Under the pieces are notes generated by a model. The model worked only from the letters and a program-made list of their open reading frames with translations. It did not search any database and was not told the DNA's origin. A program made the position numbers and the translations under genes. From Escherichia coli (lineage in GTDB: Bacteria; Pseudomonadota; Gammaproteobacteria; Enterobacterales; Enterobacteriaceae): a stretch of DNA of 4,320 nucleotides. Location: NCBI RefSeq assembly GCF_003334315.1, contig NZ_QOWR01000100.1, one strand, 5' to 3'. Below are positions 275-862 of this stretch, piece after piece; position 1 is the first letter of the stretch, and each line of letters begins with the position of its first letter.

Positions 275-862
275 CTATTTAACTTTTGCCACTTTAGTCA
301 TGAATTCTTTAATGGAAACAATCGCAGTAGCTTTCCCCCCAGGGATACTTGCAGCTGAGAAATCGATGTCTTGATTACCTTCAGTTGTATGTATGCGAAG
401 GCGGCAGTTTTTAGCCGACACCATCTTTTCTAGCACTTCATATGGGATAACAACGGTATTTTTGCTGGATGTGTAGATCGTTTTGGATACAGTATTGTAT
501 CCACTGTTACTTAGATTAGTTAGTTGCTGTGCTTTATAGCTAGATATCTTGCCATCAATATTTATATCTATTCCTATGAAACCTAAGTATGCGGAACTTC
601 CATTAGATACATTTGAATTGTAGGAAAGGATCAGCCCTACTTGATCTGGTTGGGAGCTGGACCATATTGCTCCTAACTGAAGTTGTGTTCCCCAAGTGCT
701 GTTCGGGTCGTATAGCGAATTTGGAGAGACATCTATGACAGTTGAGTTGTCAAAAGTGGATGTTTGTTGAGAAACCACACCCATTCCCGCCAGTTTATCC
801 ATTGCTGTACAGCCAGAGATGGCTACTACGATCGCAGAAGCAAAAAAAATATTCCTTATCAT
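275..862 (-). CDS. Hypothetical lipoprotein, 195 aa, predicted outer-membrane anchored; function unknown
   Basis: Full ORF in the six-frame track. N-terminus MIRNIFFASAIVVAISGC has a positive n-region, hydrophobic core and lipobox-like ISG-C (Cys18); residue +2 is Thr, not Asp, which predicts outer-membrane sorting. AGGA lies 7 nt upstream of the ATG on the minus strand. The mature protein is rich in Ser/Thr/Asn/Gly. GC is about 33-45 percent in sampled 60-nt blocks, versus about 72 percent in a sampled mob block. Confidence 0.7.
   Translation of the reverse strand: MIRNIFFASAIVVAISGCTAMDKLAGMGVVSQQTSTFDNSTVIDVSPNSLYDPNSTWGTQLQLGAIWSSSQPDQVGLILSYNSNVSNGSSAYLGFIGIDINIDGKISSYKAQQLTNLSNSGYNTVSKTIYTSSKNTVVIPYEVLEKMVSAKNCRLRIHTTEGNQDIDFSAASIPGGKATAIVSIKEFMTKVAKVK

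What the first reader, a model, noticed from the sequence alone, without database searches (positions are those of the whole stretch)
275..862. Novel predicted outer-membrane lipoprotein, Ser/Thr/Asn-rich
A lipobox-like ISG-C with Thr at +2 predicts Lol-mediated outer-membrane targeting. The mature sequence is low-complexity and biased toward S/T/N/G with alternating hydrophobics (GLILSY, YLGFIGIDINIDG, TVVIPYEV), suggesting a beta-rich fold. The C-terminus is Lys-rich (KEFMTKVAKVK). I do not recognise the family. Plasmid lipoproteins often mediate surface or entry exclusion or phage resistance, but the only TraT sequence I can compare with is a from-memory recollection and it shows no obvious similarity.
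Basis: partly seen in the sequence, partly recalled or inferred. Interest (0 to 1): 0.6.

Follow-up and report, generated by a model that had tools for sequence, protein, structure and literature searches.

The report
Mobile orphan outer-membrane lipoprotein, likely anti-phage
The ORF is a real, strongly conserved lipoprotein gene on the small Salmonella plasmid pK, and its uncharacterised family also travels as integron cassettes and as prophage genes next to repressors and known defence genes, so it is a good but untested candidate for a new single-gene cell-envelope barrier against phages.

Summary
Window 275-862 (-) encodes a 195-aa protein with a textbook lipoprotein signal peptide (lipobox ISGC, Cys18, Thr at +2). 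The window is the whole 4245-bp ColE1-type plasmid pK of Salmonella Enteritidis, where this gene has always been annotated 'hypothetical'.

- **Real gene:** an ORF this long arises in 1 of 2000 shuffles, dN/dS is about 0.1, and Cys18 is invariant in homologues.
- **Not low-complexity:** the protein is S/T/N-rich but folded.
- **Always on mobile DNA:** homologues are single-gene integron cassettes flanked by attC (4 arrays), sit directly downstream of cI-like repressors in prophages (3), lie between tail chaperone and tape-measure genes in Acinetobacter phages, or sit on small ColE1 plasmids.
- **Defence neighbours:** in three loci the gene immediately upstream is a known defence gene (Dsr1, PDC-S45, UzuA).

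Best reading (confidence about 0.45): a stand-alone envelope lipoprotein that protects its carrier, most likely by superinfection exclusion. It would be analogous to Llp, Cor, Ltp or HK97 gp15 but not homologous to them. The function is untested.

The parts
275..862 (-). Complete ORF (195 codons plus TAG stop) for the prolipoprotein; RefSeq WP_011017200.1, annotated 'hypothetical protein'
   Evidence: dN/dS 0.09-0.11; an ORF this long in 1 of 2000 shuffles
812..862 (-). Signal peptide, residues 1-17 (MIRNIFFASAIVVAISG): n-region with Arg3 and a hydrophobic h-region
   Evidence: PS51257 rule satisfied; modelled as a low-confidence helix, as expected for a cleaved peptide
809..820 (-). Lipobox I-S-G-C (residues 15-18); the Cys18 codon is 809-811, the predicted site of lipidation and of signal peptidase II cleavage
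   Evidence: Cys18 is invariant in alignments A1 and A4; lipobox present in 152 of 168 family members; the next residue is Thr, and no Asp at +2 in 156 relatives
278..811 (-). Mature lipoprotein, residues 18-195: short conserved tether (CTAMDKLAGMGVV), a ten-strand beta-sandwich-type domain, and helices at 141-149 and 180-194
   Evidence: AF2 model: mean pLDDT 87.1, pTM 0.81; same fold in 369 AFDB50 entries, the listed ones all named only 'Lipoprotein' or 'Uncharacterized' apart from one FecR-domain label; no close solved relative
281..325 (-).
870..873 (-). Shine-Dalgarno-like AGGA, 7 nt upstream of the ATG
   Evidence: read directly from the sequence
863..1021 (-). Upstream region between the 3' end of RNAI / the RNAII promoter region and the ORF. 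It is conserved in the ~84%-identical sister plasmids. No consensus sigma-70 promoter was found. The gene has the same orientation as RNAI and starts 160 nt downstream of it.
   Evidence: transcription by RNAI read-through or by a weak promoter is inference only
250..267 (.). Perfect GC hairpin GCCGCC-TGTAAT-GGCGGC (as written on the + strand), starting 8 nt beyond the stop codon, between the convergent cargo genes
   Evidence: read from the sequence; no T-run on the gene's strand, so a terminator role is uncertain
190..202 (-). Intrinsic-terminator-like site on the gene's strand, about 73 nt after the stop codon
   Evidence: a consensus match only

Best explanation
The ORF is a functional gene for a lipid-anchored envelope protein. 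By the +2 rule it is sorted to the outer membrane. It belongs to an uncharacterised but large family of stand-alone ~200-aa lipoproteins that move between bacteria as self-sufficient single-gene modules. Those modules take four forms: integron cassettes, genes co-oriented with and directly downstream of prophage repressors, accessory genes inside phage tail operons, and cargo of small ColE1 plasmids such as pK.

Proposed mechanism: the protein is made constitutively in the carrier cell, is lipidated at Cys18, and sits close to the membrane on a short conserved tether. There its beta-sandwich domain binds a conserved envelope component, or possibly a conserved part of an incoming phage. This blocks adsorption or DNA entry, which is superinfection exclusion, and so protects both the host and the mobile element that carries the gene.

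Shown here: the gene is real and under constraint, lipoprotein signals are conserved across the family, it needs no conserved partner gene, it sits on mobile DNA in all but one locus examined, and it sits in lysogeny-expressed and defence-associated positions. Inferred: actual lipidation, outer-membrane location, expression, and the anti-phage activity itself.
For: **Gene and lipoprotein**
- establish the ORF, the selection on it and the conserved lipobox.

**Mobile, stand-alone**
- Homologues are single ORFs bounded on both sides by canonical attC sites in four independent integron arrays: L008/9, L010/11, L012 and L019. A single-ORF cassette implies the protein needs no co-encoded partner.

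**Lysogeny-expressed position**
- In three unrelated prophages the gene starts 21-40 nt after a cI-like HTH repressor gene on the same strand: L002-4, L016 and the Mu-like L020.
- Other prophages show related layouts: HTH regulator, phrog_4487, then the lipoprotein (L023); tail-to-tail with a repressor-like gene (L022); and next to a PHROG 'moron'-category membrane protein (L024).
[quoted passage not shown] HK97 gene 15, a proven superinfection-exclusion moron, also lies between those two genes (PMC3594210).

**Precedents**
- Ltp is a lipoprotein in the lysogeny module of TP-J34. It is transcribed from the prophage and blocks DNA injection (PMC3952083).
- Cor inactivates FhuA and also protects against colicin M (PMC3594210).

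**Defence association**
- The gene immediately upstream is Dsr1 (E 7.5e-140), PDC-S45 (1.3e-117) or UzuA (1.1e-51) in three independent loci.
- None of 10 other cassette neighbours hits PADLOC.
- Integron cassettes of unknown function often confer phage resistance, and about a third of those have membrane helices (bioRxiv 10.1101/2024.07.02.601719). Cassette proteins are enriched in signal peptides (PMC10661359).

**Accessory, not housekeeping**
- The gene is in 7 of 5426 complete E. coli genomes, on plasmids only.
- Its GC content is about 0.39-0.42, against 0.55-0.68 for the plasmid backbone.
Against: - No experiment or tool here shows phage resistance. Every functional argument is positional.
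- The protein matches no known exclusion or defence family by sequence and no solved structure closely.
- Strong purifying selection (dN/dS about 0.1) and 41-77% identity across distant gammaproteobacterial orders are not what one expects of a protein in an arms race with variable phage proteins. They fit binding to a conserved host component, but equally a non-defence role.
- Cassette order in integrons is shuffled, so adjacency to Dsr1 and PDC-S45 carries little weight, and the counts are small.
- The Dyella chromosomal copy (L005) has no obvious mobile or defence context.
- No consensus promoter was found upstream of the pK copy.
Confidence: 0.45

Rival explanations
1. It is a protective 'immunity-type' lipoprotein against envelope attacks other than phage. 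Candidate threats are colicins or other bacteriocins that use outer-membrane receptors, periplasm-acting type VI effectors, and lysozyme-like enzymes. It would work by masking a receptor or by inhibiting the incoming enzyme.
For: The same facts apply: a stand-alone exported protein on mobile elements. Strong conservation across orders suits a conserved enzyme or a conserved host target. ColE1-type plasmids are the classic home of colicin-related genes. Cor shows that a single lipoprotein can protect against both a phage and a colicin (PMC3594210).
Confidence: 0.2
2. It is a niche or surface-property factor, for example adhesion, biofilm, binding of a nutrient or small ligand, or stress tolerance. 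It would be carried by mobile elements because it helps in particular habitats, with no role in defence.
Against: This does not explain the recurrent placement directly downstream of prophage repressors or between tail genes. No ligand-binding family matches.
Confidence: 0.15
3. It is a host-interaction or virulence lipoprotein of the Bor / Iss / TraT type, giving serum or complement resistance or immune modulation to enteric pathogens.
For: It occurs on small plasmids of Salmonella and E. coli from humans and poultry. Lambda Bor and plasmid TraT are precedents of outer-membrane lipoproteins encoded by mobile elements (PMC3594210 reference list; own knowledge).
Against: There is no sequence relationship to TraT or Bor. 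Most of the family is in environmental, non-pathogenic bacteria and their phages, such as Rhodanobacter, Dyella, Microbulbifer, Marinomonas and metagenomes, where complement resistance has no meaning. The 'macrophage stimulating factor' label found in papers on similar-sized ColE1 plasmids belongs to an unrelated pBERT gene.
Confidence: 0.08
4. It is a spurious or decaying ORF with no function.
For: No consensus promoter was found. Truncated copies exist in some plasmids and in one phage.
Against: dN/dS is about 0.1 in every comparable pair. The family has 457 clusters with a conserved lipobox, the fold is confidently predicted, and an ORF of this length arises in 1 of 2000 shuffles.
Confidence: 0.01

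Closest known systems
Ltp of Streptococcus thermophilus phage TP-J34 (superinfection-exclusion lipoprotein in the lysogeny module)
   Same: Both are single-gene, lipid-anchored proteins outside the cytoplasmic membrane. Both are encoded in the lysogeny-control region of temperate phages and are scattered across phage and bacterial genomes like a moron (PMC3952083).
   Different: There is no sequence relationship: the Pfam scans found no family for any of 48 members. Ltp belongs to Gram-positive hosts and is anchored to the cytoplasmic membrane. Its active part is a repeat domain, described from own knowledge as helical, that binds the tape-measure protein. The pK protein is a beta-sandwich predicted to go to the Gram-negative outer membrane.
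Llp of phage T5 and Cor of phi80 / N15 / HK022 (outer-membrane lipoproteins that inactivate the FhuA receptor)
   Same: All are small exported lipoproteins of Gram-negative phages that act alone in the envelope of the carrier cell. Receptor masking would also explain protection against colicins (PMC3594210).
   Different: Llp and Cor are about 60-80 residues (own knowledge), against 177 mature residues here. No annotated PHROG, Pfam or NCBIfam exclusion family matches. The family is spread over many orders, so its target, if any, cannot be specific to FhuA of enterobacteria.
HK97 gp15 moron (superinfection exclusion, blocks genome injection)
   Same: [quoted passage not shown]
   Different: gp15 is a small inner-membrane protein of the YebO family, not a lipoprotein, and is unrelated in sequence.
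TraT (surface-exclusion and serum-resistance lipoprotein of F-like plasmids)
   Same: Both are plasmid-borne outer-membrane lipoproteins of about 200 residues.
   Different: There is no match to the TraT Pfam family for the protein or for 47 relatives. pK is not conjugative, and its backbone already encodes the MbeD mobilization/exclusion protein.
Phage-resistance integron cassettes (BRiCs) and cassettes of unknown function
   Same: Close relatives (66-76% identity) are bona fide single-ORF cassettes flanked by attC, in arrays that also hold Dsr1 and PDC-S45. Many tested cassettes of unknown function give phage resistance (bioRxiv 10.1101/2024.07.02.601719).
   Different: I found no mention of this family among tested cassettes in the papers searched. 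The pK copy itself has no attC.
Structural neighbours: Borrelia BB0158 (S2 lipoprotein, 8q4k), SsgA-like protein (3cm1), Bartonella IalB (3dtd)

Membership tests
Bacterial lipoproteins (Lgt / LspA / Lnt substrates; PROSITE PS51257) | N-terminal signal peptide with a basic n-region, a hydrophobic h-region, the lipobox [LVI][ASTVI][GAS]C, and Cys at position 15-35 | tested here: met
   Arg3, IFFASAIVVA, ISG-C18; PS51257 pattern matched
Bacterial lipoproteins (Lgt / LspA / Lnt substrates; PROSITE PS51257) | The lipobox cysteine is conserved in homologues | tested here: met
   Cys18 is invariant in A1 (31 sequences) and is the only invariant column in A4 (48 sequences); 152 of 168 full-length members pass PS51257
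Bacterial lipoproteins (Lgt / LspA / Lnt substrates; PROSITE PS51257) | Actual diacylglyceryl modification and signal peptidase II cleavage (globomycin sensitivity, palmitate labelling) | not testable with these tools
   Needs wet-lab work
Lol-sorted outer-membrane lipoproteins of Enterobacteriaceae | No Asp at position +2 (the Lol-avoidance signal) | tested here: met
   Thr at +2 and Ala at +3. Among 156 relatives, +2 is A, T or S in 128 and never D. The actual location was not tested.
TraT surface-exclusion lipoproteins (Pfam TraT family) | Sequence membership of the TraT family | tested here: not met
   No TraT hit even at E <= 10 for the protein, and none at E <= 0.1 for any of 48 relatives
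Ltp-type superinfection-exclusion lipoproteins | Sequence membership of the Ltp family | tested here: not met
   No Pfam hit of any kind
Ltp-type superinfection-exclusion lipoproteins | Encoded in the lysogeny module of temperate phages, next to the repressor | tested here: met
   Homologues lie 21-40 nt downstream of cI-like HTH genes in L002-4, L016 and L020. This does not apply to the pK copy itself.
Ltp-type superinfection-exclusion lipoproteins | Transcribed from the repressed prophage and blocks DNA injection | not testable with these tools
   Needs lysogen RNA-seq and infection assays
Llp / Cor receptor-blocking lipoproteins | Sequence or profile membership of an annotated exclusion family | tested here: not met
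   The only PHROG hit is phrog_7678 (unknown function); no NCBIfam or Pfam hit
Phage morons | An accessory gene inserted between conserved phage genes, expressed independently, and often of deviant composition | tested here: inconclusive
   The position is met in Acinetobacter Vieuvirus phages, inside an accessory island between tail chaperone and tape-measure gene. GC differs only slightly (0.34 against 0.38). An own promoter and terminator were not examined.
Integron gene cassettes | A single ORF bounded by attC recombination sites (R'' ...TAAC..., imperfect palindrome, R' GTTRRRY) within an array | tested here: met
   Met for the homologues in L008/9, L010/11, L012 and L019. L009 has a divergent tyrosine integrase (PF13495 + PF00589) at the array end.
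Integron gene cassettes | The pK copy itself is flanked by an attC | tested here: not met
   No match to the attC sequence model R1 in the window or sister plasmids. No R''/R' pair with an attC-like fold. Only a 6-nt GGTAAC resemblance after the stop codon.
Known anti-phage defence systems (PADLOC-DB 2.0) | A match to a defence-protein model | tested here: not met
   0 families at E <= 1

The most novel reading that the evidence does not exclude
This is the founding member of a new family of single-gene envelope defence lipoproteins whose fold has no characterised relative. The family spreads through all three main routes of gene mobility: integron cassettes, temperate phages and small plasmids. 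Because it binds a conserved envelope component rather than a variable phage protein, it would give broad exclusion of phages, and possibly of colicins, across many Gram-negative lineages.
Probability: 0.35. Interest if true: 0.7.

Novelty: new variant of a known kind. Interest (0 to 1): 0.5.

Why it matters
Small ColE1 plasmids are usually dismissed as cryptic. This one carries a constrained, exported gene that is widespread: the exact protein is on at least 1000 public contigs from Salmonella, E. coli, Klebsiella and others.

Finding one family as an integron cassette, a repressor-linked prophage gene, a phage tail-operon accessory gene and plasmid cargo is unusual. It marks a self-sufficient module with a strong, portable benefit.

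If the benefit is phage exclusion, the family would add an outer-membrane, non-abortive, single-gene mechanism to the defence catalogue. That would matter for phage therapy and phage typing of Salmonella and Acinetobacter. It would also give the many 'unknown function' integron cassettes with signal peptides a concrete, testable example. The test is cheap: clone one 600-bp gene and spot a phage panel.

Tried and rejected
1. **Diversifying selection.** DNA and protein identity to the sister plasmids are both about 84%, which suggested an arms race. The Nei-Gojobori calculation gave dN/dS 0.08-0.13 in every pair, so this was rejected.
2. **'Macrophage stimulating factor'.** Papers on 4.6-4.8-kb Salmonella ColE1 plasmids name an MSF gene (PMC6118388, PMC7341144). 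I mapped the published qPCR primers. They hit pBERT ORF 1922-2374, which is unrelated to the lipoprotein and to ORF172, and they are absent from pK and its relatives. Rejected.
3. **Two-gene system with ORF172 (3772-4290).** ORF172 occurs in 183 plasmids, many of which (for example the 4018-bp ColE1 plasmids) were not among the lipoprotein-gene hits, and the ORF next to the Hafnia copy is unrelated. Rejected.
4. **pK copy as a recognisable integron cassette.** Neither an attC sequence model nor a structure-aware scan finds an attC in the window or in the sister plasmids. Only a 6-nt resemblance remains.
5. **Covariance model of attC with structure.** RNAalifold found no consensus pairs on the MAFFT alignment, so model R1 is sequence-only.
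7. **Scans lost to queues.** The genome-contig scan was lost to a queue failure that still consumed the cap. Several other queue refusals occurred. The A4 alignment was too diverse for pattern scanning.
8. **Literature.** Searches by accession and by plasmid name found no characterisation of the protein.

Full report
**What the window is.** The 4320-base window is the complete 4245-bp circular plasmid pK of Salmonella enterica serovar Enteritidis (NC_003456.1) plus a 75-base overlap, so 1-75 equals 4246-4320. It has a ColE1-type replicon, with RNAI at 1022-1122 on the minus strand. It has a mobC-mbeA-mbeB-mbeD mobilisation block at about 1917-3747. It also has two low-GC cargo genes, at about 0.39-0.44 GC against 0.55-0.68 for the backbone. 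One is the finding's ORF at 275-862 (-). The other is a second exported protein, ORF172, at 3772-4290 (+). Identical 4245-bp plasmids occur in E. coli and Salmonella from humans, animals and wastewater, and the ORF is annotated 'hypothetical protein' in all of them.

**Observation check.** MIRNIFFASAIVVAISG|C fulfils the PROSITE PS51257 lipoprotein rule with Cys18, and Thr follows at +2. The mature protein is 14% Ser and 37% S+T+N+G, yet no 12-residue window has low entropy. An AF2 model built on 31 homologues is confident, with mean pLDDT 87.1 and pTM 0.81. It shows ten strands plus helices at 141-149 and 180-194. So the 'beta-rich' guess is right and the 'low-complexity' label is wrong. The ORF is not a chance product: 1 of 2000 shuffles of the local sequence gives a stop-free run this long. 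dN/dS against the ~84%-identical plasmid copies is 0.09-0.11, and it is 0.10-0.13 among the integron-cassette and prophage copies where dS is not saturated.

**The family.** A word-indexed search found 68 relatives at 41-99% identity, including chromosomal or prophage copies in Rhodanobacter and Dyella. An exhaustive profile search found 457 cluster representatives at E <= 0.001, of which 101 reach E <= 1e-30. Nearly all are stand-alone proteins of 190-210 residues. Cys18 is invariant, and it is the only invariant column in a 48-sequence alignment that reaches down to 20% identity. PS51257 is met by 152 of 168 full-length members, and none of 156 regex-detected lipoboxes has Asp at +2. Unusually for a lipoprotein, the segment right after the Cys is conserved (C-[TA]-[AS]-M-D-K-x-A-G-[ML]-G-V-[VI]), as is a single Cys153.

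**Where the family lives.** This is the main new result.

(i) Integron cassettes. In four independent loci the homologue is a single ORF bounded on both sides by canonical attC sites (R'' ...CTAAC..., an imperfect palindrome, R' GTTAGGC) inside long arrays.
- L008/L009: 60% identity, about two dozen attC copies, and a divergent tyrosine integrase at the array end.
- L010/L011: 71% identity, in an array that also holds CcdAB.
- L012: 76% identity, in an array with BrnA and Unstab_antitox antitoxins.
- L019: 66% identity.
These rest. They are pK's closest non-plasmid relatives.

(ii) Prophage lysogeny modules. In three unrelated prophages the gene starts 21-40 nt after a cI-like HTH repressor gene on the same strand, divergent from the early operon. 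They are Rhodanobacter L002-L004, L016, and the Mu-like L020, which has a MuA-type transposase and a Ner-like repressor. IMG/VR contigs add four more loci:
- L021 is Mu-like.
- L023 has an HTH regulator, then phrog_4487, then the lipoprotein.
- L022 has the gene tail-to-tail with a repressor-like gene.
- L024 has the gene beside a 'moron'-category membrane protein and a ParB-methyltransferase.
L017/L018 show an HTH gene, then UzuA, then the lipoprotein, next to a large serine recombinase.

(iii) Phage tail operon. [quoted passage not shown] It has lipobox LVGC and matches phrog_7678 at 1.8e-65.

(iv) Small ColE1 plasmids. These are pK and ~84%-identical relatives in Salmonella, E. coli, Hafnia and Enterobacter. 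Homology between them runs from the RNAII-promoter region through the ORF and stops at the stop codon.

In 5426 complete E. coli genomes the gene is present in 7, always on 3.2-4.2-kb plasmids and never on a chromosome. Only the Dyella copy (L005) lacks an evident mobile context.

**Defence association.** The gene immediately upstream of the lipoprotein gene is a recognised defence gene in three independent loci: Dsr1 in L019 (E 7.5e-140), PDC-S45 in L010 (1.3e-117) and UzuA in L017 (1.1e-51). Ten other neighbours from the same arrays gave no PADLOC hit. In the Rhodanobacter prophage the next gene is a DUF1566/Lcl_C protein. A DUF1566 cassette is among the experimentally validated phage-resistance cassettes (bioRxiv 10.1101/2024.07.02.601719). 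These numbers are small, and cassette order is shuffled, so this evidence is supportive rather than decisive.

**Mechanism.** All the carrier contexts imply expression while the element is resident: integron Pc-driven cassettes, co-transcription with a prophage repressor, moron-like genes in tail operons, and a multicopy plasmid. The single-ORF cassette form shows that no partner gene is needed. The product is exported and, by the sequence rules, lipidated and sent to the outer membrane.

The literature offers precise positional precedents.
- HK97 gene 15, between the tail chaperone and tape-measure genes, is a superinfection-exclusion protein (PMC3594210).
- Ltp of TP-J34 is a lipoprotein in the lysogeny module, transcribed from the prophage, that blocks DNA injection (PMC3952083).
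- Cor lipoproteins inactivate FhuA and also protect against colicin M (PMC3594210).

I therefore propose that this protein is a stand-alone envelope barrier, most likely a superinfection-exclusion factor. The strong purifying selection and cross-order conservation suggest it binds a conserved host envelope component, in the manner of Llp and Cor, rather than a variable phage protein.

The steps shown are gene reality, lipoprotein signals, mobility, independence from partners and context. The steps inferred are lipidation, outer-membrane location, expression and the phenotype. I put the exclusion mechanism at about 0.45. The rivals are protection against non-phage envelope attack (0.2), a niche, surface or ligand-binding role (0.15), a Bor/TraT-like host-interaction role (0.08) and a non-functional ORF (0.01).

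**Comparison with known systems.** It may work like Ltp, Llp, Cor, gp15 or TraT, but it is a member of none of them, since sequence membership was tested and not met for each. The nearest structural neighbours are too distant for inference. Close relatives are members of the class 'integron gene cassette'. The pK copy is not: a sequence model built from 23 genuine attC sites and a structure-aware scan both find nothing in the window or the sister plasmids. Only a 6-nt GGTAAC after the stop codon lines up with the cassettes' R'' core.

**Leads that failed.**
- The diversifying-selection idea was refuted by the dN/dS values.
- The 'macrophage stimulating factor' name used for similar-sized ColE1 plasmids belongs to an unrelated pBERT ORF.
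- ORF172 is not a partner gene.
- No paper in the held library characterises the protein.

**Verdict.** The gene is not new to databases, but its family is uncharacterised, has no close solved structural relative, and is remarkably mobile. I rate it a new variant of a known kind: an envelope lipoprotein encoded by mobile elements, and a candidate exclusion factor. Interest is 0.5. It is not a surprise in kind, but it is a well-supported, cheap-to-test candidate for a new single-gene envelope defence.

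Noticed in passing
window 1-75 and 4246-4320: The two ends of the window are identical. The window is the whole circular plasmid pK (4245 bp) read slightly more than once.
   Followed up: yes
window 3772-4290 (+): This second low-GC cargo gene encodes a 172-aa protein with a Sec-type signal peptide (...VASA|EN). It matches phrog_31425 (1.7e-28, unknown function). It occurs in 183 plasmids, including 4018-bp ColE1 plasmids and ~110-kb non-mobilizable Klebsiella/Enterobacter plasmids. 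Those plasmids did not appear among the lipoprotein-gene hits, so its distribution looks independent.
   Followed up: partly
window 211-238: GGTGCGCCCAA-GGGATG-TTATGGTAAAT resembles the XerC/XerD core of the ColE1 cer multimer-resolution site. This comes from my memory of cer and was not tested. It lies about 40 nt beyond the lipoprotein stop codon, so the gene sits next to a site-specific recombination site.
   Followed up: no
window 2200-3747 (+): The MbeA-type relaxase ORF is intact in the window but is missing from the PLSDB feature table for NC_003456.1. The probable start is the MIVKFHPRG... Met near 2251. The tool description warns that this table is incomplete.
   Followed up: no
window 863-1122 (-): The lipoprotein gene has the same orientation as RNAI and starts 160 nt downstream of it, and no consensus promoter was found in between. 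Read-through of the RNAI terminator could contribute to its expression.
   Followed up: no
L002 8811-13168: The Rhodanobacter prophage carries a diversity-generating retroelement (bAvd plus reverse transcriptase) with Lcl_C/DUF1566 proteins. One of these proteins follows the lipoprotein gene directly.
   Followed up: no
L016 2084-2464; L023 7522-7905: A small phrog_4487 protein of unknown function lies next to the lipoprotein gene in two different prophages, once after it and once before it. It may be another accessory gene or a loose functional partner.
   Followed up: no
L007 5953-6348; L015 2501-2923; NZ_CP135230.1: Truncated copies exist. The Acinetobacter phage phi5038-11536 copy lacks the signal peptide. 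In an Enterobacter ludwigii plasmid, homology stops about 520 nt into the gene. One E. coli plasmid holds only 56% of the gene.
   Followed up: partly
L019 3141-6794; L010 7053-7913; L017 4769-5587: Dsr1 and PDC-S45 occur as integron cassettes, and UzuA occurs in a prophage accessory region. Each lies immediately upstream of the lipoprotein gene.
   Followed up: partly
L027 (pBERT) 1922-2374: The 'macrophage stimulating factor' of pBERT-type ColE1 plasmids, used as a qPCR marker in PMC6118388, is a 150-aa ORF with no signal peptide. It has no similarity to either pK cargo protein. I saw no evidence behind that name.
   Followed up: partly
window 268-274 versus L010, L012 and L019 cassette 3' ends: pK's GGTAAC right after the stop codon aligns with the GGCTAAC R'' core that overlaps the stop codon in the cassette copies. 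It could be the last trace of a decayed attC or a chance match.
   Followed up: partly
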